Shown here: piece by piece, positions 9,599 to 56,344 of the stretch
Layout: every line of letters begins with the position of its first letter
Numbering within the stretch: position 1 is the first letter of the stretch
Virus record (IMG/VR): IMGVR_UViG_3300045988_081419
Coordinates: 22,541-86,540 of that record
DNA from: a virus
Strand: one strand, 5' to 3'
Length of the DNA: 64,000 nucleotides
Position numbers and translations under genes: made by a program
The notes under the pieces: model-generated
Database searches by the model: none
What the model was told of the DNA's origin: nothing
The model's input: the letters and a program-made list of their open reading frames with translations, nothing else

Positions 9599-10663
9599 CT
9601 AAGCAACCAACATTCCTCCGGCAATTTTCTCTAATTCTAATCGTCTCTCAAGTGTGAAGTCCTGTGCAACTTCTGTAATACTATTGATAAGACCCCATCT
9701 GCTGTCTGTGTACTTAGTGTTCATTAAATCAATGACCTTGCGTGAACTCTCTTCTGAAAGTTTAGTTTTATCTTTAATATAAGCCACAAACTCATTTATA
9801 TCATCTTCATATTCACTTGCAGAACTCCAATGATTATCTCTATGCTGTGCCCTCCTAACCCACTCTACTGCATTTTCTGTGAGTAAATCTACATTCTGTA
9901 AAGACTTCACAAGTCCACTATGAAGTTCATCTACAGTAATACCAATGTGTTTCTGCTCAAACAGTGTACCTCCTGCTCTGGCAATAACAAGACCGTTAGT
10001 ACACACTTGTTTATAGATACCGAACTGTACTATCAAGGTATTTCTACCAACATCAGAACTGTCAATAAAAATACCCGGAAATAAGTCTTCGCCATCAATA
10101 GGCAACATTTCTTTACCCACTAAACGCAAATGAAGTCTTTCTTCATTTAAGAAAGAACCTTTCACTTTGTAGGTGTTTAAATCTACAGTGTCACTTAACA
10201 CCTTTAAAATGTCTGGTGTATCACAGATTGCATATCTGTCACTTAAAACACCTCGAATACTACCATTGTATTCTCTGATAAGCAGATTCTTGTCATACCC
10301 CTCAAGCCATGAGTTCATGTTGTCTTGTGCAAGTTCAATTCTGCCGGAATTGATACATCTTCTCATATACTCATGTGGAACACCAATCTTATTACACAAC
10401 TGACCCATAGCGTGTCTTGAAATACTAGGACTTCTCACTTCACCCTCTTTTGTAATATAGGTAACACCTGCAAGGTCATTTAATCTTAAAATCTCGTTAT
10501 TAACTTTAGGTACTACAAAATCCTCACATACTGACTGAATATTGTGTGCCTTATCAAGAAGCATTGTAAATGAAACTCCTCCTGTATCAAGAAGTTCTCT
10601 GGTATCTTCCTGCGGAACTGTTTCTACAACCTGTTGTGGCTGTGGTCTCTTTAATAATTTCAT
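9599..10663 (-). CDS. DUF932 family phage/plasmid protein
   Basis: 354 aa. The region SRHAMGQLCNKIGVPHEYMRRC and the overall layout recall DUF932 (TIGR03299-type) proteins. From recall only. Confidence 0.55.
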   Translation of the reverse strand: MKLLKRPQPQQVVETVPQEDTRELLDTGGVSFTMLLDKAHNIQSVCEDFVVPKVNNEILRLNDLAGVTYITKEGEVRSPSISRHAMGQLCNKIGVPHEYMRRCINSGRIELAQDNMNSWLEGYDKNLLIREYNGSIRGVLSDRYAICDTPDILKVLSDTVDLNTYKVKGSFLNEERLHLRLVGKEMLPIDGEDLFPGIFIDSSDVGRNTLIVQFGIYKQVCTNGLVIARAGGTLFEQKHIGITVDELHSGLVKSLQNVDLLTENAVEWVRRAQHRDNHWSSASEYEDDINEFVAYIKDKTKLSEESSRKVIDLMNTKYTDSRWGLINSITEVAQDFTLERRLELEKIAGGMLVA

Positions 10664-10760
10664 TGAAATTCTCCTTTCAGTGTTTTATTTAATAACTGAG
10701 TTCATTATACAGTGAAACAGAAAAGAGGTCAAAACACCTCTGTTCTAACCTCTTACTTTG

Positions 10761-11333
10761 CTATCTCTTCTGCTCTAATAGTATTCTCTTAAACACTTTC
10801 ACTATTTTACCGGGCAAACTGTGTTTCTGCACATATTTCCATGCTTCGGTTTCATCATCAAACTGAACCCAGTTTACTAAATAATCTCCATGCACTATGT
10901 CTTTCATAGGAACACCACATACATAATCTCTCATAAACACTTCACTTTCTGCTCCCGGCAAGTCAAGGTCTCTGATAGGACTATCCTGTCTTTTAGTAAG
11001 TTCTCTCATAAGCTGTTCTGTTGATATAGAAGAAACTTGAAAACTCAAGTCTTCTACCCTCTCAAAACGATAAGTCTGACCTGTAGCATTATCAAGTCTA
11101 TCTTTAATGTACAAAGTCATTTCATCACCAAACTGTTCACAAGTATCATGGTCTGCCACAAAGTCTTCAACTGGTCGCACAAAATTTCCATATTCTGGGT
11201 GGCACACATTAAAATAACTAACCATAAAGGTCTTTTCATCTAAAGCACTTTTTGAAATACCTGTCACACAATAATATTGACCTTTAAAGTGTCTATACAA
11301 TCCCGGCTTAACACTAACACTATTCATATTCAT
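10761..11333 (-). CDS. DUF1653 domain protein
   Basis: N-terminal GLYRHFKGQYYCVTG... resembles the DUF1653 core. The C-terminal half is unassigned. Confidence 0.5.
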   Translation of the reverse strand: MNMNSVSVKPGLYRHFKGQYYCVTGISKSALDEKTFMVSYFNVCHPEYGNFVRPVEDFVADHDTCEQFGDEMTLYIKDRLDNATGQTYRFERVEDLSFQVSSISTEQLMRELTKRQDSPIRDLDLPGAESEVFMRDYVCGVPMKDIVHGDYLVNWVQFDDETEAWKYVQKHSLPGKIVKVFKRILLEQKR

Positions 11334-11989
11334 TCCTCCTCTGGTGCATAAGCAAATATAGTTCCCTCTACTGTGTCATAAGTCTTTAGAGTCTTTACCC
11401 AGTTATCTTCAACAAGACTTTCAGCATAGAAATACTGTACCTCAAAAGGTAAATCACTGCCAAACAATAACACTGAATACACATTGGCTAAAGTCTGGTA
11501 TGTGACCTCTTGTGATTCAAGTGAACCATTGTAGGCTACACTAAACTGTATTCCTCCATCTTTCTGATAGATAACCTCTTCAATCGTATTCGGAAATTTA
11601 GGACTCACAACCCTATTTAGTATCACCTGAGTTATCATTTTCTGTGACTGATTATTCCCCTCACCTGCTTCTGCTTGAACACACTTTGCAAGTAATTGTA
11701 CTTCCTCTTTTGAATAAGAGGACTTACCACTGTTCAATTCTTCTTCCATTCTTATTCTCAAGCTATACTCTTCTGCATACTTGTCAAAATTAGTTTCTGC
11801 CAAAGACCTCACTTCTTCTAGGTTCTCATTGTACGCTATCCTGTTACTATCTATGGCACTTTGCAAGTCCTCATTGATTTTCTCTAAATCCTCCATGTTC
11901 TTCATAGAGAATAAGAGTATCACTAAACACAAAATACCAAAGAAAACAGTGGTACAGAAATACACCTTGTCTGCTCTAATTCCTTTCAT
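11330..11989 (-). CDS. SleB-like cell wall hydrolase with N-terminal membrane anchor
   Basis: VQAEAGEGNNQSQKMITQVILNRVVSPKFPNTIEEVIYQ matches the Hydrolase_2 (SleB) signature. N-terminal TM helix. Confidence 0.65.
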   Translation of the reverse strand: MKGIRADKVYFCTTVFFGILCLVILLFSMKNMEDLEKINEDLQSAIDSNRIAYNENLEEVRSLAETNFDKYAEEYSLRIRMEEELNSGKSSYSKEEVQLLAKCVQAEAGEGNNQSQKMITQVILNRVVSPKFPNTIEEVIYQKDGGIQFSVAYNGSLESQEVTYQTLANVYSVLLFGSDLPFEVQYFYAESLVEDNWVKTLKTYDTVEGTIFAYAPEEE

Positions 11990-12052
11990 TATGTACCTCC
12001 TAAATAAAATTAGTCTGCATGACTTTTACATCACACAGACTGATTTTAACAC

Positions 12053-13726
12053 TTATTTTCTTGTAGGTAAAGTCTCCACAATAGAGTCAATAATCTTTCT
12101 CACATCACTTGCCCCACTTCCGATTGAACTATACACATTGATAACGTCCACAACTCTCTCAGAGAATCCAGTAATAAGATTTTTTCTAAAGTCATCAGTG
12201 TTGACAATAGCAAAGCTGTTACCTAAGAGGTTATCCAGATACAGCTTCTTAATGACTTTCTTCTTAAAGAGGATATTCACCGCTTCGTCTGTGTTATAAG
12301 AAGAGTAATAACCTCTTACATACAGACGGAAAGAACTACCACTGGAAGAATAGCAATCTCCATCAGAAAGAATGATTAAGTTGTCATACTTAGTATTCTG
12401 ACTTGCAAGTACATTGATTGCAGTGTCCAGATTCGTACAACTACCTACATTGTGGTTCATAATAGTCTTCATAATGTCCATAACTGTAGACTTCTTAGAA
12501 ATGTCAGTCACCTGCTCACATCTATCTGCGAACACATACACATCTGCAATTCCTTTCTTAAAGCAGATTGCACCTAACATACAAGCTACAATGTCTGCTG
12601 TTACATTAGAAGCACCAGATACAGAGTGTCTCATAGAACCAGAACGGTCAATAAGGATAGCACTGTAACCCTCAATATCCTGCAAGTTGTCAATAGAGAG
12701 GTCTAATGCTTCTACTAAAGCGTCCATGACTCTTCTCTTTCCGGCAGAATTACTCAGTTTAGACACCTCTTGATATGCACTGTAGAATCTGAAAGGTAAC
12801 AGTCTGGACTTCTGTACCTCTTTCTTATTCGTGAGTTTTGCCACAATACTGTCTACTGCTTTAGAATCACTAAACATACCTGCTCTGTCAAGTGCTACAA
12901 GGTTCTTCACAATAGCCATGACTGTAGAGGTATCAATGGACTTCTTAACATCAGCCTTTGTGGTCTTACTGTTCTTGTTGTTCACTTTAGACAACTCAGC
13001 CTGCACCTGCTTAGTCTCTTCACTGCCACCAAACTCTACATTACCCTCAATGACTCTCTTATAGAAGTCTTCACTGACCCTAGAGTTAGCCGGATTAGGT
13101 CTTAAAAGTTTGATACAGTCGGCAAGAGATACCTCTCTGTTATCTCCCAGTGCTTTAGACAACTGATACTCGTTAAAAGACTCCAACTTCATTTTCAAGG
13201 ACTTCCTTAACTGCATAGGGAGTGGCTGATTTCTGTGATTGGTCTTATTCTTTCCCCGACCTTTTGTAGTCACGTCAAAACCAAACACATTCATCTGCAT
13301 TGCCATAATATCAGTAATGTCTTTACCTCTTCTAACAATATAGTCTGTGTAGGTCTGCAACTTGTTTCTTCCAGTCACTTCATCAATGAAGTTCTCACCC
13401 TTAAATCTAGGGTCATTAAAACAAGCTGTAAGCACTGCCAGAGGGTACTGAATCATATTATACTCTCTGCCGATTCTGGCTACTTTTAAAGCATACTCTA
13501 CATCAGACTCCGGGATTTCCGCAATAAGTCTCTGAATCTCTTTAAAGTCTTTCTCTGCTGTCCTCTTCTCATAATGAGTACCCTCACCAAAGAAAGAACT
13601 CAACACTTTACTAAACAGAATTTCAAGGGTGTCTAACTTATGTACTACACTACCCTCATGGTTCACTGTCTTTCTGGTGTCAGTCTTCATGTTCACTGCT
13701 CCACGTTTCTTGTTCATTGTTGCCAT
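12053..13726 (-). CDS. rsr: Ro60/Rsr ortholog (TROVE domain + vWA domain)
   Basis: By eye it aligns to human Ro60 landmarks: FFGEGTHYEK (cf FGSEGGTYY), RLLPFRFYSAYQ (cf RIHPFHILIALETY), MIDAS AILIDRSGSM (cf LAVDVSASM), GSCTNL, LIILSDGD. Start set at MATMNKK behind SD AAGGAGG (ATG 13724-13726). Confidence 0.85.
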   Translation of the reverse strand: MATMNKKRGAVNMKTDTRKTVNHEGSVVHKLDTLEILFSKVLSSFFGEGTHYEKRTAEKDFKEIQRLIAEIPESDVEYALKVARIGREYNMIQYPLAVLTACFNDPRFKGENFIDEVTGRNKLQTYTDYIVRRGKDITDIMAMQMNVFGFDVTTKGRGKNKTNHRNQPLPMQLRKSLKMKLESFNEYQLSKALGDNREVSLADCIKLLRPNPANSRVSEDFYKRVIEGNVEFGGSEETKQVQAELSKVNNKNSKTTKADVKKSIDTSTVMAIVKNLVALDRAGMFSDSKAVDSIVAKLTNKKEVQKSRLLPFRFYSAYQEVSKLSNSAGKRRVMDALVEALDLSIDNLQDIEGYSAILIDRSGSMRHSVSGASNVTADIVACMLGAICFKKGIADVYVFADRCEQVTDISKKSTVMDIMKTIMNHNVGSCTNLDTAINVLASQNTKYDNLIILSDGDCYSSSGSSFRLYVRGYYSSYNTDEAVNILFKKKVIKKLYLDNLLGNSFAIVNTDDFRKNLITGFSERVVDVINVYSSIGSGASDVRKIIDSIVETLPTRK

Positions 13727-13764
13727 AATACATTCCTCCTTTAATTTCATAAATGTGTGGATAT

Positions 13765-13801
13765 AATAAAAGACCTCACAATTCGGGAAGATTGTGAAGT
13801 C
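13765..13801 (-). terminator. Rho-independent terminator ending the tRNA/ncRNA operon
   Basis: Minus strand GACTTCACAAT-CTTCCCGA-ATTGTGAGGTC (11 bp, one G-U) followed by UUUUAUUAU. Confidence 0.7.
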
Positions 13802-13816
13802 CTTTAATCTTAACAA

Positions 13817-13969
13817 GTGTAGGAAGAAAAGCGTTATTGTATGAAATCGTTTGCTTCATTAAAAGTGAAGTGCCTTAACCAATTAGGCTATCTGTCAAAT
13901 TATTTGGCTGACGGAGTGGGAATCGAACCCACATAAATGATGTAAACAATAACTGCACAATCCTACCAC
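13817..13969 (-). ncRNA. Circularly permuted tRNA-like RNA, unit A (Y RNA/YrlA-like; anticodon-arm loop UUU)
   Basis: Minus strand order: T arm GTGGG-TTCGATT-CCCAC (13932-13916); closed acceptor TCCGTCA-GCCAAATAATT-TGACAGA (13915-13891); TA; D arm GCCT-AATTGGTTA-AGGC (13888-13872); A; anticodon arm CTTCA-CTTTTAA-TGAAG (13870-13854). Flanks pair: GTGGTAGGA/TCCTACAC and GTTATTGT/ACAATAAC. Confidence 0.6.
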
Positions 13970-13986
13970 AATAATTACTACGTTAA

Positions 13987-14137
13987 AATTTAGGAGTAAA
14001 GCCACTTAGCTGTAAATCTCTTAAAGAGTGTTTTCAAGACACTTGCGTATTCCAGTTTCGCCAAATTTCCAATCGGAAATTATAAGATTTGAACCTATAT
14101 ATTTTATGATGTAAGCTAAATGTACACAACCCAAATT
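13987..14137 (-). ncRNA. Circularly permuted tRNA-like RNA, unit B (Y RNA/YrlA-like; anticodon-arm loop UGA)
   Basis: Minus strand order: T arm ATAGG-TTCAAAT-CTTAT (14098-14082); perfect closed acceptor AATTTCC-GATT-GGAAATT (14081-14064); TG; D arm GCG-AAACTGGAATA-CGC (14061-14045); A; anticodon arm AGTGT-CTTGAAA-ACACT (14043-14027). Candidate closing helix AATTTGGG (14137-14130) / CCTAAATT (13994-13987). Confidence 0.55.
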
Positions 14138-14181
14138 ATTATATTCCTTTTAAAGTGGAGTAAAACGATAAAGTCTGTTTG

Positions 14182-14254
14182 TTATCACAACAGGAGTCGA
14201 ACCTGCAATCTTTTTCTTGGAATGAAAACGTCTTAACCATTTGACTATATGATG
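14182..14254 (-). tRNA. tRNA-Gly(UCC): tRNA-Gly (anticodon UCC)
   Basis: Hand-folded cloverleaf: CATCATA-TA-GTC..GAC-G-TTTTC-ATTCCAA-GAAAA-AGATT-GCAGG-TTCGACT-CCTGT-TGTGATA-A. One C1-A72 mismatch. No encoded CCA. Confidence 0.8.
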
Positions 14255-14320
14255 TAAACTTTATCTACACAACCACTATAGTTACTCTATCATAAGGAAG
14301 AAAAACATAAAAGACTTCTT

Positions 14321-14393
14321 TTCATATTGTCGGAATCGAACCAACTACACTTATTTCCCAAAAATAATGCTCTACCTATTGAGCTAAACATGA
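14321..14393 (-). tRNA. tRNA-Pro(UGG): tRNA-Pro (anticodon UGG)
   Basis: TCATGTT-TA-GCTC-AATAGGTA-GAGC-A-TTATT-TTTGGGA-AATAA-GTGTA-GTTGG-TTCGATT-CCGAC-AATATGA-A. Confidence 0.8.
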
Positions 14394-14481
14394 TGTAATC
14401 TTTTATTACACAATCCTTATTTTCTTTAACACTGCTCTCAGCGTGTTTACACTATATCACACTTTCTAAAAGCTGTCAAAA

Positions 14482-16689: not shown

Positions 16690-17460
16690 ACAGAATTTTA
16701 ACACCTCACTTTCTCACCAGTTTCTCAGAACACCTCACTCACAAAGGGGTATGGGGTCGGTGTTTAAGGGTCACACACCTCACCGAAATTCTTACCTAGT
16801 TCTGAGGTACTAGGCGACACATCAGTGAACCTCTGTCCATTTAAGGGTGGGGTACACTATGAAAAGGGTGTTTTCACTCAAAAATTTCAAGTTTTCAGCA
16901 CCAAATCACTAACCAACACTACTATTTCAATAAAATTATTAGTTTTCAGTATCAAAGCAATGAATTTTATTCAAAGTTTGATTATTTATACATAATGTGT
17001 ATAGTGTATGTGCATAGTGTGTATATAGTATGTGTCTATACTATATGTAGTATGTATATAGTGTATATAGTACTATGTATATACAATATATTGTATGAAT
17101 AATATGTGGATAGTATTGTATAATTATTACTTATTTATACAGTATATACATATAATATACATACTATTATAAAAGACCACACATATAGTACTAGGGTACA
17201 TTACCAATTTTTAAGCACATATAGGAGTATAGCCCTACCTCATATATCCACTCTATATAATCTATTATATACCTACCACCCCTCCCCAGTGTTCTCACTA
17301 CACTCACTATACTCTCACCAACACCTCACTTGTGTTATATACATTTCCTTAAAACACCTCACTCTTTCTCTAAACACAATTAAATACTTTCACTTCTCAG
17401 CGGAATTTCTTCTTTTGGCACACCTACACCTGTTCAAGCACCTTTAGTGACACCTCACTG
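16690..17460. repeat. Iteron-like direct repeats ACACCTCAC(T/C), at least 6 copies in one orientation
   Basis: Plus-strand copies at 16701-16710, 16730-16739, 16775-16784, 17321-17330, 17354-17363 and 17450-17459. TACCTCAC variants near 16668 and 16685. They lie inside a 1.1 kb gene-free region. Confidence 0.6.
16960..17300. repeat. Alternating pyrimidine-purine AT-rich low-complexity tract (TATAGTGTATA-type)
   Basis: Runs such as gtgtatagtgtatgtgcatagtgtgtatatagtatgtgtctatactatatgtagtatgtatatagtgtatatag. There is no ORF, and iteron clusters lie on both sides. Confidence 0.6.
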
Positions 17461-28507: not shown

Positions 28508-29077
28508 TTACCCCTTTCTTCTTTCTTTAAACTCTTGATAAGAGTCCTCAAATCCGGGATTCACTCTCTTAAAATATGTGATAGTACTGCAATCACTCTC
28601 AGCACCTCTACACTTTACACATTGATGTGTTGCTTCTACCTCTACAAACAGTGCATGAGGTTCAAGCATTTCAATTAAAAACTCGCCAATCTCTGTAGTA
28701 AGTTTCTCCTGCAACTGTGGTCTTTTACTAAAGTATTTTACTACTCTAGGAAGTTTTGACAAACCAATGATGTTATCACTAGGAACATAACCAATGGTGA
28801 CTTTGCCGGAGAAAGGTAAAAAGTGGTGTTCACAAGTAGAATTAAAGTCAATGTCTCTTACAATCACCATGTCACTTCCATACTCATTAGGAAAGGTAGT
28901 CATGGTCTCCTTTAACTCTTTCATGTGTGCATCATTTACATTAGCAAATAACTCATTCACCCACATCTTAGAAATTCTAAGTGACGTATTTTTGTTGCTC
29001 TCCGTCTTTTCAATCTCAAGAATTTTCATAATTTCTTCAAGATGTTCCTTAATCTTTTCTACTTTGTTATTTATCAT
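28508..29077 (-). CDS. folE: GTP cyclohydrolase I
   Basis: CEHHFLPFSGKVTIGYVP and HQCVKCRG zinc/active-site motifs. Confidence 0.85.
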   Translation of the reverse strand: MINNKVEKIKEHLEEIMKILEIEKTESNKNTSLRISKMWVNELFANVNDAHMKELKETMTTFPNEYGSDMVIVRDIDFNSTCEHHFLPFSGKVTIGYVPSDNIIGLSKLPRVVKYFSKRPQLQEKLTTEIGEFLIEMLEPHALFVEVEATHQCVKCRGAESDCSTITYFKRVNPGFEDSYQEFKERRKG

Positions 29078-29116
29078 AGTAAGTACCTCCTTTATCTTGT
29101 TACTCCATTATAACAC

Positions 29117-29146
29117 AAAAAAGCCCTCGGTCAATAACCGAGAGCC
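29117..29146 (-). terminator. Rho-independent terminator (usable in both directions)
   Basis: Minus strand GCTCTCGG-TTATTGA-CCGAGGGC followed by UUUUUU. Confidence 0.7.
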
Positions 29147-29171
29147 TTTTCGTCTTTTAGGAAGAGTAGGA

Positions 29172-29324
29172 TTAACGTCCTCTCACACGATTTGCAACAT
29201 TCTGGATACCATTACGAACAGCTCGTCCTGCTCTTTGAAGAATGTTACCACCTCTGTTGCCACCTCTCTGAGAGTTACCGCCACCTCTTGCTCCTCTACT
29301 GGAACCTGCGTATGCTTTCATCAT
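29172..29324 (-). CDS. Gly/Arg-rich 50-aa peptide
   Basis: Below the ORF-track cutoff. SD GGAGGA, then MMKAYAGSSRGARGGGNSQRGGNRGGNILQRAGRAVRNGIQNVANRVRGR, followed directly by a strong terminator. Confidence 0.45.
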   Translation of the reverse strand: MMKAYAGSSRGARGGGNSQRGGNRGGNILQRAGRAVRNGIQNVANRVRGR

Positions 29325-29449
29325 AGCTGTGTCCTCCTTTTTCGTATATTTGGTTAAGGGGTGTCATCATAATAGGGGAATATACTAAACGCCTATCAGA
29401 GTACAGTTGGCTTAACCTGTATATAATATACCAAAACACATATAGGAAG

Positions 29450-30064
29450 TCAATAGGTTTCACCATAAATTTCTTCCAGTGCTTTACAGTCTGGACACCT
29501 TTTACATGGCAGGACTCCTAACACTGGCTCATTACAAGAGAAAAAGTCTTTCGGGGTAATATTGTGTTTTAAAGCAATCTCTTTAAAATCCCACTTATCC
29601 ACGTCAATGAAAGGTGTTTTAATCTCAATATGGCTGTCCTTTAAGACTGTTTCAAGTGCATTAAAGAACTCACCTTTACAATCAATGTATTCGTGTCCGT
29701 CAAAAGATTTGATAACTGCTACATAAATCACTGTACTACCAATACTCTGAGCCAAAGAAGAAGCATAGGACATGAAAATAAGATTGCGGTACTCAAGGTA
29801 CTGTTCATCACCATATTCATTAGAGGTCTTTCTACCATACAGTGTACTCTGAGACCACTTAATAGGTTTGAGTTTCACTACATGGTTTATCATATTCAAC
29901 TTCTTACACACCCTCTTAGCCCGATTTGTTTCCATAAGATGGTTTCTGTTTCCATATTCAAAATGGAGGGAGTGAATTTCTGCGTCTGGGTTATTATCCC
30001 TAACCCAGTGACACAGACACACACTGTCAAAACCTCCGCTGTTCAGTACTACAATCTTTTTCAT
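29450..30064 (-). CDS. queC: 7-cyano-7-deazaguanine synthase
   Basis: PP-loop VVLNSGGFDS and a C-terminal Zn cluster CNEP...CKRCPDC. Confidence 0.85.
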   Translation of the reverse strand: MKKIVVLNSGGFDSVCLCHWVRDNNPDAEIHSLHFEYGNRNHLMETNRAKRVCKKLNMINHVVKLKPIKWSQSTLYGRKTSNEYGDEQYLEYRNLIFMSYASSLAQSIGSTVIYVAVIKSFDGHEYIDCKGEFFNALETVLKDSHIEIKTPFIDVDKWDFKEIALKHNITPKDFFSCNEPVLGVLPCKRCPDCKALEEIYGETY

Positions 30065-30075
30065 GTGTGTACCTC

Positions 30076-30402
30076 CTAGCGTCTAAAAATATCCGGCACA
30101 TCAGATGGGAGAGCATTTCTTGTAGGTCTTGCCTTATTCTCTGTAGAGTGGTATAAAGGTTGACCCACACTTCTCTGCTGTCTCTCTTCTGTCTTAGGTG
30201 TTTTAGCAGGTCTTCTTCCGGCTACTTTGTTAAGTCCATTGAGTCTTGCTGTCTCTTCTTCTAAGATTTCTTTTGCACCAAGTTTTGCTCCGTCATATCT
30301 GTCTTTGTCTGCTTTAATCTCTTCTGCCCTTGCAAGTGTTCTTGCGTCATCACGTCTCTGCCATCTTGCTTCTTCTGGGTCAATAGGTCTTCTATTCATC
30401 AT
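30076..30402 (-). CDS. Hypothetical basic protein
   Basis: 108 aa, R/K/E-rich. Start coupled to the upstream mini-ORF (TAATG). Confidence 0.5.
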   Translation of the reverse strand: MMNRRPIDPEEARWQRRDDARTLARAEEIKADKDRYDGAKLGAKEILEEETARLNGLNKVAGRRPAKTPKTEERQQRSVGQPLYHSTENKARPTRNALPSDVPDIFRR

Positions 30403-30470
30403 TACTTTTTACCTCCTTTTTTGCTACCTTTCTTAGTACTCTTACTACCTTTTTTAGTTCCACAAGCCAT
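30402..30470 (-). CDS. Possible 22-aa Lys-rich mini-ORF
   Basis: MACGTKKGSKSTKKGSKKGGKK. TAATG overlaps at both ends and SD GGAGGTG upstream. It could equally be only an SD-bearing spacer. Confidence 0.3.
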   Translation of the reverse strand: MACGTKKGSKSTKKGSKKGGKK

Positions 30471-30664
30471 TATGTGTCACCTCCTACATCTAAAAGCTGA
30501 CCTGTCTCAATCACACCACCTTGTTTCTGGCAGTTAGGACATTTAAGGTCTTTTAAAAGGGTTTCCACTGGTCTAACAGAAATCCATCTGTGAACACAGT
30601 GAACACAGAGGACTTCTGATACCATGTGAGGTTTGTTTGCGTCAATATCAACAACCTTTGACAT
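30470..30664 (-). CDS. Zinc-ribbon protein
   Basis: CVHCVH...CPNC, 64 aa. Confidence 0.5.
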   Translation of the reverse strand: MSKVVDIDANKPHMVSEVLCVHCVHRWISVRPVETLLKDLKCPNCQKQGGVIETGQLLDVGGDT

Positions 30665-31315
30665 TTACTGTACCTCCAAAATCTTATGCAACTGAATCTG
30701 GACTCTGACGTTTAAATGGTCTTCAAGAATCCACTCAACAAGTTCTTTTCCAATGTAGGCTTTTCCATTCGGGTCAAACATAGGACTGACAAGAATACTT
30801 GCAGAAGTAGGGTACTTTTTCATAACCCCTTTCATAAACTCATAATCTTCTCTGTCCTTGATAACATACTTAACCTCGTCATTGTTTTGCAATTTTAAAA
30901 GGTTCTCATAAATGTTTTTGTGCTTTACTCCACTGGACGGACCTTTAATGTCCATCACATATTTGTAACTTCTTCTGTAACTAGGTTCTTCCAAAGGAAC
31001 ACAACCACTTGTCTCAATAGACACATTAAATCCGAGGGATTGTAACTCATATACCAGTGGAAGTGCTTCTTCATGGATAAGTGGCTCACCACCTGTCAGA
31101 CAAATGTTCTTACACCACTTATAGTCTTTAAGGACTGCTTGAACTAAGTTACCTACAGAAATTCTTTTTCTGTCCTCTTTCTTTTGGGGTTGGTCGCAAT
31201 AGGAACAACCTACTGGACAGCCAAACAAACGAATAAAGACACAAGGGAGACCAGTATCACTTGATTCTCCCTGTATGCTACAAAAGATTTCATCATAGTA
31301 TAACATAGTCTCCAC
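30665..31315 (-). CDS. queE: 7-carboxy-7-deazaguanine synthase (radical SAM)
   Basis: FIRLFGCPVGCSYCD radical-SAM cluster motif, with size and context matching QueE. Confidence 0.8.
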   Translation of the reverse strand: METMLYYDEIFCSIQGESSDTGLPCVFIRLFGCPVGCSYCDQPQKKEDRKRISVGNLVQAVLKDYKWCKNICLTGGEPLIHEEALPLVYELQSLGFNVSIETSGCVPLEEPSYRRSYKYVMDIKGPSSGVKHKNIYENLLKLQNNDEVKYVIKDREDYEFMKGVMKKYPTSASILVSPMFDPNGKAYIGKELVEWILEDHLNVRVQIQLHKILEVQ

Positions 31316-31319
31316 CTCC

Positions 31320-31724
31320 TTATGTCGCAGGTTGCAGAATATTTCTTAAACTCTCATAGCTTGGAATGTATTCTGCATAACTGTCTTCTGTCTCCCACAA
31401 TTTCACGCTTACAAGATAAACATTATCCGGGAGGTTTTGCATAATTGTTTTTCCAATGTCAACCACCATAATTTCTGCGGTAGGGTTAGGGTAATGGTTA
31501 TTTAAGTCCTCATGGTCTAATTTATCAACCACATAGTCTTTGACAATCTTCTTGAGGTCTTTAAAATCCATAATCATTCCTTGCTTCGGACCATCTTTAA
31601 TGATGGAACCTCCTACTGTAACATCAAGTTTGTAGGAGTGTCCATGAAGATTGTGGCAAGCACCCTTATAATGAGGTAAGTGGTGACACGCTTCAAATCC
31701 AAAGTGTTTTGTAATTGTAAGCAT
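31320..31724 (-). CDS. queD: 6-carboxy-5,6,7,8-tetrahydropterin synthase
   Basis: CHHLPHYKGACHNLHGHSY zinc/catalytic motif, 134 aa. Confidence 0.85.
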   Translation of the reverse strand: MLTITKHFGFEACHHLPHYKGACHNLHGHSYKLDVTVGGSIIKDGPKQGMIMDFKDLKKIVKDYVVDKLDHEDLNNHYPNPTAEIMVVDIGKTIMQNLPDNVYLVSVKLWETEDSYAEYIPSYESLRNILQPAT

Positions 31725-53717: not shown

Positions 53718-54077
53718 TTACTCCTCCACTGGTTTAAGAATATCACTATAAGATTTATTGACTGGACAAACACTAAAATGTCTGCCAGATAACTCACCGT
53801 TATCTTTTACTGGTCTAACATAAAGAGTACCAGATTCACACTCAAGTAAACACTTCTGTACTTTTCTGGTCTTACCTGCTACAACTTCTGCCATAGCATA
53901 ATCTCCAATTTTAAAGGGAAGAATCTGAATACTAAGAATCTCTTTCCGAATGTCTTCATTTTCTTCAAGAAGACTCCTTATCTTCTGTTCATTATACTGT
54001 AACTTCGTTTTTAATTCCTGCAATCTGTTATTCTCTACAGAAGTATTTTTAATTTTTGTAGATTTCTTTAACACCAT
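53718..54077 (-). CDS. Hypothetical protein
   Basis: 119-aa ORF, SD AAGGAGGA. Confidence 0.5.
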   Translation of the reverse strand: MVLKKSTKIKNTSVENNRLQELKTKLQYNEQKIRSLLEENEDIRKEILSIQILPFKIGDYAMAEVVAGKTRKVQKCLLECESGTLYVRPVKDNGELSGRHFSVCPVNKSYSDILKPVEE

Positions 54078-54079
54078 AA

Positions 54080-54420
54080 TTACTGTCCTCCTTTTCTATC
54101 AAATGATAAATCAATCTTAAATTCACCCGGAGAATACACTTCGACAAACTGACCCTCTTTAACAGCTTATTGACCATAGTAATCACCTTTATTAAGATGG
54201 CTTAACACTCTCTGAATTGTGGTGCTTCTACTTGCTCTTTCCTCAAAAGCAATGTAACCATTGTCAAGGTTAATCATAGAACAGTAAGTAGCTGTAGACT
54301 GACCTGCATACTGAGACTTACCTTACAAGGTAACACATACACTTTACAACCTGCTCTAAACAACTTTCTTGCAATAGGTTTACTGACTTTCTGATACACA
54401 CCATTATCAAACTCATTCAT
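54080..54420 (-). pseudogene. Disrupted small gene (one frameshift and one in-frame TAA)
   Basis: The ATG at 54418-54420 overlaps the upstream stop (ATGA). Frame 1 gives MNEFDNGVYQKVSKPIARKLFRAGCKVYVLPCK. The protein-like sequence continues in another frame (KSQYAGQSTATYCSMINLDNGYIAFEERASRSTTIQRVLSHLNKGDYYGQ), then TAA (54168-54170), then AVKEGQFVEVYSPGEFKIDLSFDRKGGQ. Confidence 0.55.
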
Positions 54421-55043
54421 CATAAACTTCTTCTATCCTTTCCCACAATTTTTATAATGGTCTGTGTTCCATTTACTAAAGAACATACACTATTACCATA
54501 GTTGGCTTTAAATGCAGGTAAATCAAGATTACAACAAATAATGGTAACAAGACCATGCTCTTCTCTATATCTTAATAAGTCCTCTAAAATAGGTTGAGCA
54601 ATCTTACTATCAATCTCTTTGCCGATTTCTTCAAGCACAAGAAATTCAACACCTTTATACTTCTCATAGAAGTCATTCTCAACCACACTCTTTTCAGCCT
54701 TATCTTTTACACTCCATGCTTCTGTATAATAACTGATATACTGACTAAAGGTTACTCTCCGGCAGGAGTATCTTCTTCTGTATGCTTCTTTTAAAATAAT
54801 GCAGGACAACATACTCTTCCCAACACCATTTGAACCACAAAAGAAGATACCTCTATTCTCTTCAATATTCTCATATAAGTTATCAATGTATTTTTTCACA
54901 AAAGACTTAACCTCTTTTACTTCTGGATATGCTACAAAATCATCTAAAGTGACCTTACAAAAATGTTTTGGAACTCCCATAAGAATTAAACTCTGTTCAT
55001 TGATAACTGGTCTTAAAGGTCTTTTCATGTATATACCCTCCAC
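54420..55043 (-). CDS. DnaC/IstB-like AAA+ helicase loader
   Basis: Walker A FFCGSNGVGKSML and Walker B FLVLEEIG. Confidence 0.7.
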   Translation of the reverse strand: MEGIYMKRPLRPVINEQSLILMGVPKHFCKVTLDDFVAYPEVKEVKSFVKKYIDNLYENIEENRGIFFCGSNGVGKSMLSCIILKEAYRRRYSCRRVTFSQYISYYTEAWSVKDKAEKSVVENDFYEKYKGVEFLVLEEIGKEIDSKIAQPILEDLLRYREEHGLVTIICCNLDLPAFKANYGNSVCSLVNGTQTIIKIVGKDRRSL

Positions 55044-55046
55044 TTA

Positions 55047-55598
55047 CTAAAATTTAGCTCCAATCTGTGTTTCAACAGTATCAGAGGATTCCCATTCACC
55101 TTTTAACTTTTTAGAAGTCCTTTTCTTTGAACGAGGAATGTACTTGTCTTCCACCCACAGTTTAAAATCAGCATAAACAGTGTTTATCCAACTACTTGCA
55201 AGTATGTTAGGACTTAATCTTTCTCTATCAAGATAGTCCTGTTCACTATTATAGAGGAACTCAATCATTCCACAAATTTCTCTAGGGGAGTAATTCTGCA
55301 AAAGAACTTTAAAGATGTGCATATCCTTTTGTACATTGCTTATCACATATTTGAATCCTGCTTCTTCTGCAACCTTTTTAAAGTAATAGGTCAAGTCTCT
55401 TGTTTTAAAAGAGTCAATGTACTCTTCCAGATTTTCATACTTTCTCAAAAACTGCTCATACTGAGAGCCACCACTATAATTCCTTTTCTTAGGTGTTTCT
55501 GGTTCTCTCTGAGTATTCTTTACTGCAACCTGTCCTCTTCTCTGTCTTAAAGTAGAAACGAGGTCATTGTTGCCGACTCTAGTTGTTATACGTTTCAT
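55047..55598 (-). CDS. Hypothetical protein (possible replication initiator/organiser)
   Basis: 183-aa ORF directly upstream of the loader. The function is guessed from position only. Confidence 0.35.
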   Translation of the reverse strand: MKRITTRVGNNDLVSTLRQRRGQVAVKNTQREPETPKKRNYSGGSQYEQFLRKYENLEEYIDSFKTRDLTYYFKKVAEEAGFKYVISNVQKDMHIFKVLLQNYSPREICGMIEFLYNSEQDYLDRERLSPNILASSWINTVYADFKLWVEDKYIPRSKKRTSKKLKGEWESSDTVETQIGAKF

Positions 55599-55648
55599 AG
55601 TTACCTCCTATTTAAAAGAAGACCTGTGTTTCAAGGTCTTCTCATTTC

Positions 55649-55960
55649 TTACTCTATATAAGATTGTACAGTGTCTTGAAGCACTTCGTCAACAACACCG
55701 ATAATACGCTCAAATGCCTGTTGCTGTGTTTCTCCCGGCTGTACTTCATCAGTAAGCCAACAATCAACACGAAGAGACTCATAGTTATCCATGTTCTTTG
55801 TAATACCCAAATTCACTCCCACAACACCCACACTCTGCTGTTTTCTGTGGTGGTCGTTAGGTGTTCCACTCTTGAGTGTTTCTTGATTTTTACTTGTGCC
55901 TTTTGTAACTGTAGTGTTCTCTGTTGCTGTCTGCTTCAATGATTTCTTCTTTAATGCCAT
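55649..55960 (-). CDS. Hypothetical protein
   Basis: 103 aa. It shares the leader AAGGAGGAAATTATCATGGC with the gene at 57181. Confidence 0.5.
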   Translation of the reverse strand: MALKKKSLKQTATENTTVTKGTSKNQETLKSGTPNDHHRKQQSVGVVGVNLGITKNMDNYESLRVDCWLTDEVQPGETQQQAFERIIGVVDEVLQDTVQSYIE

Positions 55961-55986
55961 GATAATTTCCTCCTTGCAGAAACAGA

Positions 55987-56328
55987 TTAGTCAAGAATAA
56001 GACCATGACGGTCAGCGTCTTTAATATCCACAGATAACACAAAGTCCTTATTCTCAAGAGTCAGCTTTAAAACTTTACCCTTGTCATTGAAATTGGTAAC
56101 TTTAAAGTCATCACCCAGATTAAACTTACCAGAGATAAGTGCTGTTGCTCTTTCAAGTTTAAGAGTAGACGCTCCTGCTTCTTTCTCTGCTTCTTGCTGT
56201 GCAATGATAGCTTCACTCTCAGCCTTTGTCAAATGCTTCTCCTCAGCTTCCTTTTTGGTCTCTTCAACCTGTGCTTCTGTCTGTGCTACTTTTGCTTCTT
56301 CTTTTGCTTTCTTTTTAAGACTTGCCAT
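55987..56328 (-). CDS. Hypothetical protein
   Basis: 113 aa with a K/E/A-rich N-terminus. Confidence 0.5.
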   Translation of the reverse strand: MASLKKKAKEEAKVAQTEAQVEETKKEAEEKHLTKAESEAIIAQQEAEKEAGASTLKLERATALISGKFNLGDDFKVTNFNDKGKVLKLTLENKDFVLSVDIKDADRHGLILD

Positions 56329-56344
56329 CTTAAATTACCTCCTA

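What the first reader, a model, noticed from the sequence alone, without database searches (positions are those of the whole stretch)
13817..14137. Two tandem, complete but circularly permuted tRNA cloverleaves next to a Ro60 gene
Read on the minus strand, two adjacent ~150-nt units each contain every tRNA arm, but in rotated order: T arm, closed acceptor hairpin, D arm, anticodon arm.

Unit B:
- T arm ATAGG-TTCAAAT-CTTAT (14098-14082).
- This abuts AATTTCC-GATT-GGAAATT (14081-14064), a perfect 7-bp acceptor-like stem closed by a tetraloop.
- Then TG, and D arm GCG-AAACTGGAATA-CGC (14061-14045).
- Then A, and anticodon arm AGTGT-CTTGAAA-ACACT (14043-14027; U33, UGA, A37).

Unit A:
- T arm GTGGG-TTCGATT-CCCAC (13932-13916).
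- TCCGTCA-GCCAAATAATT-TGACAGA (13915-13891; 6 of 7 bp). The 3' strand is followed by G-CCA.
- Then TA, and D arm GCCT-AATTGGTTA-AGGC (13888-13872).
- Then A, and anticodon arm CTTCA-CTTTTAA-TGAAG (13870-13854; UUU).

All junction spacings are the canonical tRNA ones (0 nt T/acceptor, 2 nt acceptor/D, 1 nt D/anticodon) in both units, so chance is very unlikely.

The free ends fall where a class II variable arm would emerge, and the flanks can pair there:
- Unit A: GUG-G-UAGGA (13969-13961) with UCCUACAC (13824-13817), 8 bp with one bulged G.
- Unit A: GUUAUUGU (13953-13946) with ACAAUAAC (13840-13833).
- Unit B: AAUUUGGG (14137-14130) with CCUAAAUU (13994-13987).

A T arm, closed acceptor and D arm on top of a terminal stem is the architecture reported for bacterial YrlA-type Y RNAs, the RNA partners of Ro60/Rsr. 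The rsr-like gene starts about 90 nt downstream. I have not seen three features described: retention of a full anticodon arm with a canonical 7-nt loop, tandem duplication, and an encoded CCA at the closed acceptor.

An alternative reading is that RNase P and 3' processing at the acceptor loop would release two-piece (split) tRNA-Lys-like and tRNA-Ser-like molecules held together by the variable-arm helix.
Basis: partly seen in the sequence, partly recalled or inferred. Interest (0 to 1): 0.88.

Follow-up and report, generated by a model that had tools for sequence, protein, structure and literature searches.

The report
Phage Ro60 partner RNAs carrying whole tRNAs
Just upstream of its Ro60 gene, this uncultured gut phage encodes four small RNAs that share one conserved stem, and each carries a complete tRNA (two in normal order, two circularly permuted), which looks like a new form of the Y RNAs that partner Ro60 and bears on the idea that Y RNAs evolved from tRNAs.

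Summary
Every arm and coordinate checks out. Once computationally un-permuted, both units are called as full tRNAs (Lys-UUU ending in GCCA, and Ser-UGA). None of 3000 control segments gave a call. All six helices of each unit pair in 95-98% of cells across relatives, and four or five of the six show compensatory changes.

Four tandem units (13815-14423, minus strand) have their own promoter and terminator. All four share a scaffold: outer helix, sequence-conserved internal loop (5' UUGUGYA / 3' GNUUUNCU), 8-bp inner helix, then UUACAUCAU. The two upstream units hold ordinary-order tRNA-Pro and tRNA-Gly.

Across 26 related loci I catalogued 66 distinct scaffolds. They hold normal tRNAs, T-first permuted tRNAs, anticodon-first permuted tRNAs, or no tRNA at all. 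In IMG/VR, the well-paired scaffold occurs only on contigs that carry this Ro60 clade. A diverged version flanks the annotated tRNA-Tyr and tRNA-Lys next to the Ro60 of GenBank phage csAssE-Sib (25% identity).

Best reading: a new subfamily of Ro60-partner (Y-type) RNAs with complete tRNA modules. They are not members of Rfam YrlA (26.5 bits against a cut-off of 69, no GNCGAA motif). Anticodons vary between close relatives, and some loops have 6 or 8 nt, which argues against routine decoding. Ro60 binding, processing and function are untested.

The parts
14451..14479 (-). Sigma-70-like promoter (TTGACA, 17 nt, TGnTATAGT) lying between tRNA-Gln and unit D
   Evidence: 11 of 12 consensus matches plus an extended -10. 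The same sequence is present in relative L130.
14289..14423 (-). Unit D: scaffold enclosing a normal-order tRNA-Pro(UGG) at 14321-14393. Outer helix 14414-14423 with 14289-14298. 5' loop UUGUGUA 14407-14413. Inner helix 14399-14406 with 14307-14314. UUACAUCAU 14390-14398. 3' loop GUUUUUCU 14299-14306.
   Evidence: ARAGORN and Rfam tRNA at 58.3 bits. Scaffold parsed. The MFE fold shows the stem enclosing the cloverleaf, z = -2.7.
14149..14282 (-). Unit C: scaffold enclosing a normal-order tRNA-Gly(UCC) at 14181-14254 with a C1.A72 mismatch. 5' loop 14266-14272. Inner helix 14258-14265 with 14167-14174. UUACAUCAU 14249-14257. 3' loop GUUUUACU 14159-14166. Outer helix GUGG 14273-14276 with CCAC 14155-14158.
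   Evidence: (58.4 bits). In relatives the anticodon at this position is GUU, GUC, AAC, GCA or UCC.
13985..14139 (-). Unit B: scaffold enclosing a permuted tRNA-Ser(UGA)-like module. Outer helix 14130-14137 with 13987-13994. 5' loop UUGUGUA 14123-14129. Inner helix 14115-14122 with 14003-14010. UUACAUCAU 14106-14114. T arm 14082-14098. Closed acceptor 14064-14081 with a GAUU loop and no CCA. D arm 14045-14061. Anticodon arm 14027-14043. 3' loop GCUUUACU 13995-14002.
   Evidence: 98.1% paired, 9 compensatory pairs; rotated sequence called tRNA-Ser(tga).
13815..13970 (-). Unit A: scaffold enclosing a permuted tRNA-Lys(UUU)-like module. Outer helix 13961-13969 with 13817-13824 (one bulged G). 5' loop UUGUGCA 13954-13960. 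Inner helix 13946-13953 with 13833-13840. UUACAUCAU 13937-13945. T arm 13916-13932. Acceptor hairpin 13891-13915 with G-CCA at 13905-13908. D arm 13872-13888. Anticodon arm 13854-13870. 3' loop GCUUUUCU 13825-13832.
   Evidence: YrlA positions 30-81, 26.5 bits; 95.3% paired, 11 compensatory pairs; rotated sequence called tRNA-Lys(ttt) with a GCCA end.
13763..13803 (-). Intrinsic terminator: 16-bp hairpin followed by UUUUAUUAU, lying between unit A and the Ro60 ribosome-binding site
   Evidence: Free energy -18.9 kcal/mol, z = -4.5, 0 of 200 shuffles fold as well. An equivalent hairpin plus T-run occupies the same place in relatives and in csAssE-Sib.
12053..13726 (-). Ro60 (Rsr-like) gene, 557 aa. 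Ribosome-binding site AAGGAGG at 13735-13741.
   Evidence: Pfam TROVE 4.7e-13 and vWA_Ro60 9.7e-8. PDB matches: 9KOP/9L5Y (phage phiLo Ro60), 1YVP, 2NVO.

Best explanation
The region 13763-14479 (minus strand) is a small RNA operon. It has its own promoter, four tandem RNA genes of about 130-155 nt, and an intrinsic terminator just before the Ro60 gene.

In each RNA, the 5' and 3' ends pair into the same scaffold:
- an outer helix;
- an asymmetric internal loop conserved in sequence (5' UUGUGYA opposite 3' GNUUUNCU);
- an 8-bp inner helix;
- an invariant UUACAUCAU.

Inside the scaffold sits a complete tRNA. Units D (Pro-UGG) and C (Gly-UCC) have it in normal order. Units B (Ser-UGA-like) and A (Lys-UUU-like) have it permuted as T arm, closed acceptor, D arm, anticodon arm.

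I read these as a new subfamily of Y-type RNAs, the RNA partners of the phage Ro60.
- Inferred: the conserved loop and helices are the Ro60 docking site, and the tRNA body is the exposed effector module.
- As transcribed, the acceptor end is never free. It is joined to the scaffold or closed by a loop. The anticodon loop is always exposed.
- Inferred by analogy with M. smegmatis YrlA: unit A has a 7-bp acceptor and an encoded GCCA, so RNase P probably opens the loop and the 3' end is trimmed to CCA. That would leave two halves held together by the roughly 20-bp scaffold.

Shown here: the structures, the completeness of the tRNAs, the operon signals, and the exclusive co-occurrence with Ro60. 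Inferred: Ro60 binding, any processing, and the biological role.

My own estimates: scaffold binds Ro60, about 0.65. Unit A is opened at the acceptor loop, about 0.4. Any scaffolded module acts as a decoding tRNA, about 0.2.
For: - Structure of units A and B: compensatory changes in T, acceptor and anticodon helices and both scaffold helices of unit A, and in T, acceptor, anticodon and outer helices of unit B. D arms and unit B's inner helix do not covary.
- Scaffold: in 42 distinct units, 17 of 18 pairs covary and 89.9% of cells pair, against 57% in shuffles. Across 66 distinct scaffolds the 3' loop reads G59 (of 65) N U65 U60 U62 N C65 U65, although this loop was not used to find them.
- tRNA completeness: rotated or doubled modules are called as tRNAs. 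Native permuted ones are not. Controls give 0 of 3000.
- The scaffold is independent of its cargo. Of 66 units in 26 loci, 25 hold normal-order tRNAs, 28 hold T-first permuted modules, 2 hold anticodon-first permuted modules, and 11 hold no tRNA-like module.
- The same inner helix (GAUAAAGU with ACUUUAUC) carries a normal tRNA in the window and a permuted one in L131.
- Link to Ro60: in an IMG/VR scan, all 12 contigs with a well-paired scaffold (15 or more of 18 pairs) encode this Ro60 clade. The 28 chance matches score 14 or less and show no Ro60.
- The scaffold persists down to 45% Ro60 identity. A diverged version (UGGUGA ... UUACUUCGAA ... GCUUUUCC) flanks three units beside a 25%-identical Ro60 in GenBank phage csAssE-Sib.
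- Against routine decoding. Anticodons change between near-identical relatives: unit A shows UUU, GUU, GCU, UGU, UGA, ACG, AUU and GAA. A34 anticodons occur (AAC, ACA, AUU). Some anticodon loops have 6 or 8 nt. The acceptor top (C)AUCAU and A73 stay constant whatever the anticodon.
- Precedents: YrlA is a Ro60-bound, permuted tRNA mimic. M. smegmatis YrlA is cut by RNase P, receives CCA, and its halves stay bound to Rsr.
Against: - There are no expression, end-mapping or binding data. Ro60 binding is inferred only from co-occurrence and architecture.
- The scaffold lacks the GNCGAA/CGAA motif linked to Ro60 binding in YrlA and in the phage phiLo Yrl RNAs. It falls far short of Rfam YrlA.
- Units C and D score as good tRNAs (58 bits). 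RNase P and 3' processing could simply release them.
- The window's eight anticodons are non-redundant (GCU, GUU, GUA, UUG, UGG, UCC, UGA, UUU), and unit A is its only Lys-UUU. That is what a working decoding set would look like.
- Some scaffolded units lie 1.2-1.6 kb from Ro60, inside ordinary tRNA arrays (L131, L142).
- 3' partners in the scaffold alignment were chosen partly by complementarity, which inflates the percentage paired.
Confidence: 0.6

Rival explanations
1. These are working phage tRNA genes with an unusual maturation route. The shared stem is a leader-trailer processing helix (for example a double-strand-specific RNase site) that marks each precursor. Units C and D are released as ordinary tRNAs. 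Units A and B are opened at the acceptor loop and act as two-piece (split) tRNAs held together by a very long 'variable arm'. Ro60 lies nearby only because phage Ro60 genes tend to sit in tRNA clusters, or because it checks the quality of these precursors.
For: - Units C and D have good tRNA scores.
- Units A and B are perfect cloverleaves after rotation, and unit A has an encoded GCCA.
- The window's anticodon set is non-redundant, and unit A is its only tRNA-Lys(UUU).
- The loop framework C32-U33 ... A37-A38 is kept while the triplet changes.
- Phage Ro60 genes commonly sit in tRNA clusters.
- M. smegmatis YrlA shows that such a loop can be cut by RNase P and given a CCA end.
Against: - Eleven of 66 scaffolds enclose nothing tRNA-like, so there is nothing to process.
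- The other tRNAs of the same arrays (Gln, Tyr, Asn, Ser) lack the stem.
- The internal loop is conserved in sequence across 45-99% Ro60 identity, as a protein-contact site would be, rather than only in pairing.
- The well-paired scaffold was found only with Ro60.
- Anticodon loops of 6 or 8 nt, A34 anticodons, and a constant acceptor top and A73 regardless of anticodon all fit poorly with cognate charging.
- CCA is lost in L005, L144, L198 and L203.
- Unit B's acceptor is closed by only 4 nt.
Confidence: 0.2
2. These are Ro60-stabilised tRNA decoys or baits. The scaffold and Ro60 protect and display a complete tRNA body with an exposed anticodon loop. That body titrates or senses host factors that target tRNA, such as anticodon nucleases deployed as anti-phage defence. 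Changes in the anticodon retarget the bait.
For: - The anticodon loop is exposed and the acceptor end blocked in all three topologies.
- Anticodon triplets and whole anticodon arms change between close relatives while the rest of the RNA is kept.
- Cellular Ro60/Y RNA loci are linked to RNA repair operons that respond to damaged tRNAs.
Against: - This is purely inferential. The window contains no nuclease inhibitor, RNA ligase, RtcB or Pnkp among the ORFs scanned.
- Anticodon variability fits relaxed constraint equally well.
- Loops of 6 or 8 nt would be poor mimics of real targets.
- Units B (UGA) and D (UGG) are stable, not diversifying.
Confidence: 0.1
3. These are decaying tRNA pseudogenes or recombination scars at the edge of a tRNA array, with no function of their own.
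For: - The units sit at the end of a tRNA cluster.
- Tandem tRNA duplication followed by deletion is the textbook route to permutation.
- One 99%-identical relative (L134) has a deletion that removes part of unit A.
Against: - There are compensatory changes in T, acceptor and anticodon arms and in scaffold helices.
- The units are conserved from 99% down to 45% Ro60 identity, with a diverged counterpart at 25%.
- They have a dedicated promoter and terminator.
Confidence: 0.02

Closest known systems
YrlA-type bacterial and phage Y RNAs (Rfam RF02553; Chen et al. 2014, PMC4201824; Wang et al. 2018, bioRxiv 10.1101/312249)
   Same: - Encoded next to Ro60 and on the same strand.
- 5' and 3' ends form a long stem.
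- The module has T arm, closed acceptor-like hairpin and D arm in that order, with the tRNA tertiary-contact nucleotides.
- A YUAY element (here UUAC) follows the 5' strand of the stem.
- Partial Rfam match over model positions 30-81.
   Different: - Scores 26.5 bits against a gathering score of 69.
- No GNCGAA(N)G motif. The stem carries a different conserved loop (UUGUGYA / GNUUUNCU).
- In YrlA the stem takes the place of the anticodon stem and there is no anticodon loop. Here a full anticodon arm is kept and the stem leaves from the variable region.
- The same scaffold also carries un-permuted tRNAs, a second permutation (break at position 26), or no tRNA.
Mycobacterium smegmatis YrlA (Chen et al. 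2014)
   Same: It has a 7-bp acceptor stem closed by a loop. RNase P opens it in vivo and in vitro. The 5' half gains a CCA end. Both halves stay associated with Rsr. It lies in tandem with a second Y RNA upstream of rsr.
   Different: There, CA is added after cleavage. In unit A the full GCCA is encoded in the loop. M. smegmatis YrlA has no anticodon arm. Cleavage of the phage RNAs has not been tested.
Deinococcus radiodurans Yrn1
   Same: A Ro60-bound Y RNA that can be drawn with a T arm and an anticodon-like 5-bp stem.
   Different: - Its loop has 6 nt and its D arm is incomplete.
- Its order of arms differs.
- Its Ro-binding helix resembles that of metazoan Y RNAs.
- The phage modules are complete cloverleaves with 7-nt loops.
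Circularly permuted tRNA genes of Cyanidioschyzon merolae and some archaea, and split tRNAs of Nanoarchaeum (my own knowledge, and as cited)
   Same: The 3' half of the tRNA is encoded upstream of the 5' half. The acceptor starts as a closed loop containing the CCA-proximal sequence. Leader and trailer pair with each other.
   Different: - Those precursors carry a bulge-helix-bulge motif that a splicing endonuclease cuts before ligation. This scaffold has a 7 x 8 nt internal loop between 8-10-bp helices, not a bulge-helix-bulge.
- No endonuclease or RNA ligase was found in the window.
- Those genes have no link to Ro60.
b7a-tRNA (Burroughs and Aravind 2016, as described)
   Same: A predicted non-coding RNA that looks like an authentic tRNA. 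It is encoded in RNA-repair neighbourhoods and occasionally next to Rsr.
   Different: It is described as a plain tRNA-like gene. No shared Ro-type scaffold or permuted forms are reported. I could not read the original paper.
Thermus phage phiLo Yrl1 and Yrl2 (PMC12135203)
   Same: Two Y RNA-like genes upstream of a phage Ro60. Binding to the phage Ro60 was shown in vitro.
   Different: They are stem-bulge-stem RNAs with a CGAA motif and no reported tRNA module. Their Ro60 is only distantly related (E = 2.7e-12).
Two-piece tmRNA from circularly permuted ssrA genes (my own knowledge)
   Same: A bacterial precedent for a permuted tRNA-like gene. Its transcript is cut in the acceptor-closing loop, giving two base-paired pieces with a CCA end.
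   Different: The only tmRNA match is 12.8 bits on the T arm. There is no mRNA-like domain and no link to SmpB.

Membership tests
tRNA (cloverleaf, Rfam RF00005) | All four arms with canonical sizes, spacings and near-invariant nucleotides (U8, A14, G18G19, U33, R37, U54-U55-C56, G53:C61, R15:Y48) | tested here: met
   Present in units A and B by inspection. Rotated sequences are called tRNA-Lys(ttt) and tRNA-Ser(tga) by ARAGORN. Units C and D score 58 bits on RF00005.
tRNA (cloverleaf, Rfam RF00005) | Arms in the order acceptor-5', D, anticodon, T, acceptor-3', with free ends at the acceptor | tested here: not met
   For units A and B, ARAGORN finds nothing in the native order. RF00005 gives only 29.1 and 23.3 bits on partial alignments. 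Units C and D have the normal order, but their ends continue into the scaffold.
tRNA (cloverleaf, Rfam RF00005) | Anticodon conserved among orthologues, with a 7-nt loop, as decoding requires | tested here: not met
   Unit A orthologues carry 8 different anticodons. Unit C orthologues carry at least 5. Loops of 6 or 8 nt and A34 anticodons occur. Non-scaffolded tRNAs of the same arrays keep their anticodons.
YrlA (Rfam RF02553) | Score at or above the family gathering score of 69 bits | tested here: not met
   Unit A scores 26.5 bits over model positions 30-81 only. No other unit gave a YrlA match, even at E up to 10.
YrlA (Rfam RF02553) | T arm, closed acceptor-like stem and D arm, in that order, inside a stem formed by the 5' and 3' ends | tested here: met
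YrlA (Rfam RF02553) | GNCGAA(N0-1)G motif near the 5' end, the proposed Ro60 contact (Chen et al. 2014) | tested here: not met
   The only GNCGAA inside the four units is at 14057-14062, within unit B's D arm. The 5' strand carries UUGUGYA instead.
YrlA (Rfam RF02553) | The terminal stem takes the place of the anticodon stem, and there is no anticodon loop | tested here: not met
   A covarying 5-bp stem with a 7-nt loop follows the D arm after 1 nt. All 5 pairs covary in unit A and 3 of 5 in unit B.
YrlA (Rfam RF02553) | Encoded within a few kb of Ro60 on the same strand | tested here: met
   The units lie 91-700 nt upstream of the Ro60 start on the same strand. The same holds in 26 related loci.
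Y RNA (functional definition) | Bound by Ro60 in vivo or in vitro | not testable with these tools
   Only indirect support: the scaffold co-occurs exclusively with this Ro60 clade in IMG/VR, and a diverged counterpart lies beside a 25%-identical Ro60.
Y RNA (functional definition) | Terminal stem with a conserved bulge or internal loop, plus a variable loop module | tested here: met
   Helices covary while the loop is conserved in sequence. The inner module ranges from 24 to about 100 nt, with or without a tRNA.
Circularly permuted tRNA genes (Cyanidioschyzon type) | 3' half of the tRNA encoded upstream of the 5' half, joined through the acceptor | tested here: met
   Units A and B. Relatives L131 and L133 are permuted at position 26.
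Circularly permuted tRNA genes (Cyanidioschyzon type) | Bulge-helix-bulge motif at the leader-trailer junction, plus a splicing endonuclease and ligase to circularise | tested here: not met
   The junction is a 7 x 8 nt internal loop between helices of 8 and about 8-10 bp. Pfam scans of 45 window ORFs found no endonuclease, RtcB or RNA ligase. Small ORFs were not scanned.

The most novel reading that the evidence does not exclude
The conserved stem is a universal Ro60 docking handle onto which a phage can graft any tRNA topology. At least unit A would be opened by RNase P, matured to a CCA end and aminoacylated. The product would be a two-piece, Ro60-tethered tRNA-Lys(UUU), the first split tRNA outside Archaea. 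It would serve in translation or as a nuclease-resistant spare or decoy during infection. On this reading, the normal, permuted and tRNA-free cargos in one scaffold are living intermediates of the proposed evolution of Y RNAs from tRNAs.
Probability: 0.15. Interest if true: 0.9.

Novelty: new variant of a known kind. Interest (0 to 1): 0.75.

Why it matters
What the tRNA-like module of bacterial Y RNAs does is still unknown, and the idea that Y RNAs derive from tRNAs rests on resemblance alone.

This phage family offers one conserved Ro60-linked scaffold with several different cargos:
- authentic-looking tRNAs;
- two different circular permutations of complete tRNAs, anticodon arm included;
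- degenerate modules;
- no module at all.

That is a natural series. It makes the evolutionary model testable. It also separates the presumed Ro60 handle from the effector module.

The family gives experimenters compact, abundant substrates from human-gut phages. These could be used to ask what Ro60 recognises when the known GNCGAA motif is absent. They could also show whether a Ro60-tethered tRNA can be cut by RNase P, CCA-tailed or charged, and why anticodons turn over so quickly.

There is a practical point too. Genome annotators label some of these RNAs as plain tRNA genes (for example tRNA-Tyr and tRNA-Lys of phage csAssE-Sib) and miss the permuted ones entirely.

Tried and rejected
- The pattern scan TTGTG-N10-TTACATCAT in IMG/VR was too unspecific. 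A two-part pattern worked.
- blastn of the region against GenBank phages found nothing. No cultured relative has a Ro60 above 30% identity.
- I tried to see the full Rfam YrlA consensus, and to check whether other phage Ro60 loci carry YrlA. No YrlA match reached the gathering score in eight loci, so I could not compare the Ro-binding halves column by column.
- A plain MAFFT alignment misaligned the anticodon arms of L007 and L008. I replaced it with N-padded manual alignments.
- I looked for consistent Watson-Crick pairing between the 5' and 3' internal-loop strands. There is none, so I did not model the loop as a helix.
- I considered a bulge-helix-bulge splicing motif. The geometry does not fit.
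- I considered that the reverse transcriptase at 62642-63805 might diversify the anticodons, as in a diversity-generating retroelement. There are no template/variable repeats in 54-64 kb, and the variation is confined to 2-3 nt, so I rejected this.
- I looked for RNA repair or processing partners (RtcB, RNA ligase, Pnkp, CCA-adding enzyme, PNPase) among 45 ORFs and found none.
- The Burroughs and Aravind 2016 paper and the Sim and Wolin reviews are not in the held library.
Full report
**1.

- Unit B: T arm 14098-14082, 7-bp acceptor closed by GAUU 14081-14064, D arm 14061-14045, anticodon arm 14043-14027.
- Unit A: T arm 13932-13916, acceptor hairpin 13915-13891 with G-CCA after the 3' strand, D arm 13888-13872, anticodon arm 13870-13854.
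- Junction spacings are 0, 2 and 1 nt in both units.

ARAGORN and Rfam find six ordinary tRNAs upstream but nothing convincing here in the native order. At relaxed thresholds, unit A gives a 29.1-bit partial tRNA match. It also gives a 26.5-bit match to positions 30-81 of Rfam YrlA, covering T arm, acceptor and D arm. Unit B gives a 23.3-bit partial tRNA match.

When I rotate the sequences so the acceptor is opened and the variable region closed, ARAGORN calls unit A as tRNA-Lys(UUU) ending in GCCA and unit B as tRNA-Ser(UGA). The same doubling trick on 3000 random window segments gives no call. MFE folds recover the hairpins and a long terminal stem in both units. In unit B an alternative pairing replaces the proposed anticodon arm.

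The adjacent ORF (12053-13726, ATG 91 nt after unit A) is a genuine Ro60. It has TROVE and vWA_Ro60 domains. It matches the solved Ro60 structures of phage phiLo, Xenopus and Deinococcus.

**2. Relatives and covariation.**

Ro60-based searches of viral, genome and metagenome collections, plus contig look-ups, gave 30 or more related loci at 45-99% Ro60 identity. They are mostly from human-gut assemblies. No cultured phage has a Ro60 above 30% identity, and the DNA has no GenBank phage match.

I made manually registered alignments and counted pairs.
- Unit A (13 distinct sequences): 95.3% of cells paired. Eleven pairs have changes on both sides, against 4.2 +/- 1.4 in shuffles (0 of 500 reach the observed value). 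Slid controls give 36-64% paired. All five anticodon-stem pairs covary.
- Unit B (10 sequences): 98.1% paired, with nine compensatory pairs, four of them in the acceptor and three in the anticodon stem.

**3.

The two units are the last two of four. Each is flanked by the same architecture:
- an outer helix;
- 5' UUGUGYA;
- an 8-bp inner helix;
- UUACAUCAU;
- the cargo;
- the inner helix 3' strand;
- GNUUUNCU;
- the outer helix 3' strand.

Units D (14289-14423) and C (14149-14282) carry the tRNA-Pro(UGG) and tRNA-Gly(UCC) that ARAGORN and Rfam call at 58 bits. The first acceptor nucleotides are part of the UUACAUCAU motif. No other place in the window has the full signature, and the upstream tRNAs Gln, Tyr, Asn and Ser lack it.

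The four units have their own strong promoter-like site, TTGACA-17-TGnTATAGT at 14479-14451. They end at an intrinsic terminator at 13803-13763 (free energy -18.9 kcal/mol, z = -4.5), just before the Ro60 ribosome-binding site.

**4. The scaffold is a conserved entity, independent of its cargo.**

In 42 distinct scaffolds, 17 of 18 helix pairs covary and 89.9% of cells pair, against 57% in shuffles.

One caveat applies. I located the 3' partners partly by complementarity, so the percentage paired is inflated. Two independent controls address this.
- The 3' loop was not used in the search, yet it reads G(59 of 65)-N-U(65)-U(60)-U(62)-N-C(65)-U(65) across 66 distinct scaffolds. The unconstrained position 7 of the 5' loop is A in 65 of 66.
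- In an IMG/VR scan for the 5' motif plus TTTNCT, all 12 contigs scoring 15 or more of 18 pairs carry this Ro60. The 28 chance hits score 14 or less and have no Ro60 in the fetched stretch.

Cargo in 66 distinct units from 26 loci:

| Cargo | Units |
|---|---|
| Normal-order tRNA | 25 |
| T-first permuted, like units A and B (23 called as tRNA after doubling) | 28 |
| Anticodon-first permuted (break at position 26; L131, L133; rotated constructs called tRNA-Asn) | 2 |
| No tRNA-like module (24-77 nt) | 11 |

One scaffold lineage (inner helix GAUAAAGU with ACUUUAUC) holds a normal tRNA in the window and a permuted one in L131.

**5. The link to Ro60 extends to a distant lineage.**

GenBank phage csAssE-Sib (human gut) has a Ro60 only 25% identical to this one. 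It has three units directly upstream of that gene, followed by a terminator. One is a T-acceptor-D permuted unit. The other two are annotated tRNA-Tyr and tRNA-Lys.

Each sits in a stem with the same layout and a recognisably related sequence: [outer helix]-UGGUGA-[9-bp helix]-UUACUUCGAA ... GCUUUUCC-[outer helix]. Phage Ro60 genes in general sit in or beside tRNA clusters. Rfam YrlA does not reach its threshold in eight other phage Ro60 loci.

**6. Are the cargos working tRNAs?**

Evidence that they are:
- The cloverleaves are complete, with the tertiary-contact nucleotides and an A15:U48 pair.
- The loop framework C32-U33-NNN-A37-A38 is kept.
- The window's eight anticodons are non-redundant, and unit A is its only Lys-UUU.

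Evidence that they are not:
- Ro60-proximal unit A carries UUU, GUU, GCU, UGU, UGA, ACG, AUU or GAA in different relatives. Several of these sit in otherwise near-identical sequences.
- Unit C carries UCC, GUU, GUC, AAC or GCA. Non-scaffolded tRNAs of the same arrays keep their anticodons.
- A34 anticodons occur (AAC, ACA, AUU). To my knowledge bacteria do not use these.
- Four scaffolded tRNAs have 6- or 8-nt anticodon loops.
- The acceptor top and A73 are dictated by the scaffold motif whatever the anticodon.
- The encoded CCA of unit A is present in 9 of 13 close sequences. It is replaced by CCG in two, lost in two (L005, L144), and absent from more distant unit A homologues (L198, L203).

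I take this to mean that a tRNA-shaped body with an exposed anticodon loop is selected, rather than a particular decoding identity. A decoding or CCA-bearing role for individual units, especially unit A of this window, is not excluded.

**7. Comparison with what is known.**

YrlA RNAs are Ro60-bound, circularly-permuted-looking tRNA mimics with T, closed acceptor and D arms. They lack the anticodon loop, and the terminal stem takes the place of the anticodon stem. They carry GNCGAA(N)G and YUAY elements.

M. smegmatis YrlA has a 7-bp acceptor. It is cut by RNase P and receives CCA, and its halves stay with Rsr. It lies in tandem with YrlB. A dimeric-tRNA origin for Y RNAs has been proposed. 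Phage phiLo Ro60 binds two CGAA-containing Yrl RNAs.

Against this background, tandem arrangement and acceptor opening are not new.

New features:
- a separately conserved scaffold without the GNCGAA motif;
- retention of a complete anticodon arm;
- three attachment topologies (acceptor end, variable region, position 26) plus empty scaffolds;
- rapid anticodon turnover.

A search of the held literature found no description of this arrangement. Key reviews and Burroughs and Aravind 2016 were not available, so prior mention cannot be ruled out.

**8. Context.**

The window is a tailed phage of a Gram-positive host. It has a portal, terminase, PolA, DnaB, primase, RecA, NrdD, ThyX and an endolysin with CW_7, LysM and CHAP domains. 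It also has a preQ0 biosynthesis cluster and a reverse transcriptase. No RNA ligase, RtcB, Pnkp, CCA-adding enzyme or PNPase was found among the 45 ORFs scanned.

**9. Verdict.**

The best explanation (confidence about 0.6) is a four-gene operon of a new subfamily of Ro60-partner, Y-type RNAs whose effector modules are complete tRNAs. I class it as a new variant of a known kind, with interest 0.75.

Ro60 binding, processing and function remain inferences. The experiments listed under next steps would settle them.

Noticed in passing
L188 (GenBank OR575929.1, phage csAssE-Sib) 2504-2920: The annotated tRNA-Tyr (2672-2744) and tRNA-Lys (2817-2890) upstream of this phage's Ro60 are embedded in a diverged version of the same scaffold. 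An unannotated T-acceptor-D permuted unit lies at 2504-2633. The acceptor stem of the 'tRNA-Lys' pairs at only about 4 of 7 positions.
   Followed up: partly
window 28508-31724 (minus strand): A cluster for 7-deazaguanine (preQ0) synthesis: GTP cyclohydrolase I (28508-29077), QueC (29450-30064), a radical-SAM QueE-like protein (30665-31315) and a QueD/PTPS protein (31320-31724). It may modify DNA or supply queuosine for GUN-anticodon tRNAs. I did not look for a DpdA/TGT gene.
   Followed up: no
window 62642-63805 (minus strand): An ORF with a reverse transcriptase domain (RVT_1, 1.6e-15). No direct repeats of 40 nt or more lie in 54000-64000, so no template/variable repeat pair is visible inside the window.
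   Followed up: partly
window 16990-17160: An AT-rich stretch packed with short TATAGTGT/GTGTATAT-like repeats on both strands. It produced many spurious hits in my stem scan. It could be an origin, an iteron region or a promoter cluster.
   Followed up: no
window 14011-14031 (unit B, just after the anticodon arm): A short hairpin (CUCU-UUA-AGAG here) overlaps the 3' strand of the anticodon stem by 1-4 nt. It is kept through different sequences in relatives (CUUC/GAAG, UUUCAU/AUGAAA, CCUU/AAGG). It is either a variable-arm hairpin or an alternative to the anticodon stem.
   Followed up: partly
L134 97-223 (relative with 99% identical Ro60): Unit A carries a deletion between two CUUUU repeats. 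It removes the 3' half of the anticodon arm and the inner-helix 3' strand. This is either a natural loss variant or an assembly artefact.
   Followed up: no
window 13893 and 13913 (unit A acceptor, pair 5:68): An A.C mismatch in the acceptor stem is kept in 10 of 13 distinct unit A sequences. It becomes A-U in the other three, together with a G-C to A-U change in the neighbouring pair.
   Followed up: partly
window 9599-13726, and L196-L205 downstream of Ro60: The gene order Ro60, cell-wall hydrolase (Hydrolase_2), DUF1653, DUF932 is largely conserved downstream of Ro60 in relatives; some lack the hydrolase.
   Followed up: no
L192-L195 (Gordonia phage Rabbitrun, Bacillus phage G, Streptomyces phage Sham, Halovirus HGTV-1): Ro60 genes of unrelated cultured phages also lie within or beside tRNA clusters. 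Two have a nucleotidyltransferase gene nearby. Rfam YrlA reaches its threshold in none of them, so their Y RNAs, if any, are undescribed.
   Followed up: partly
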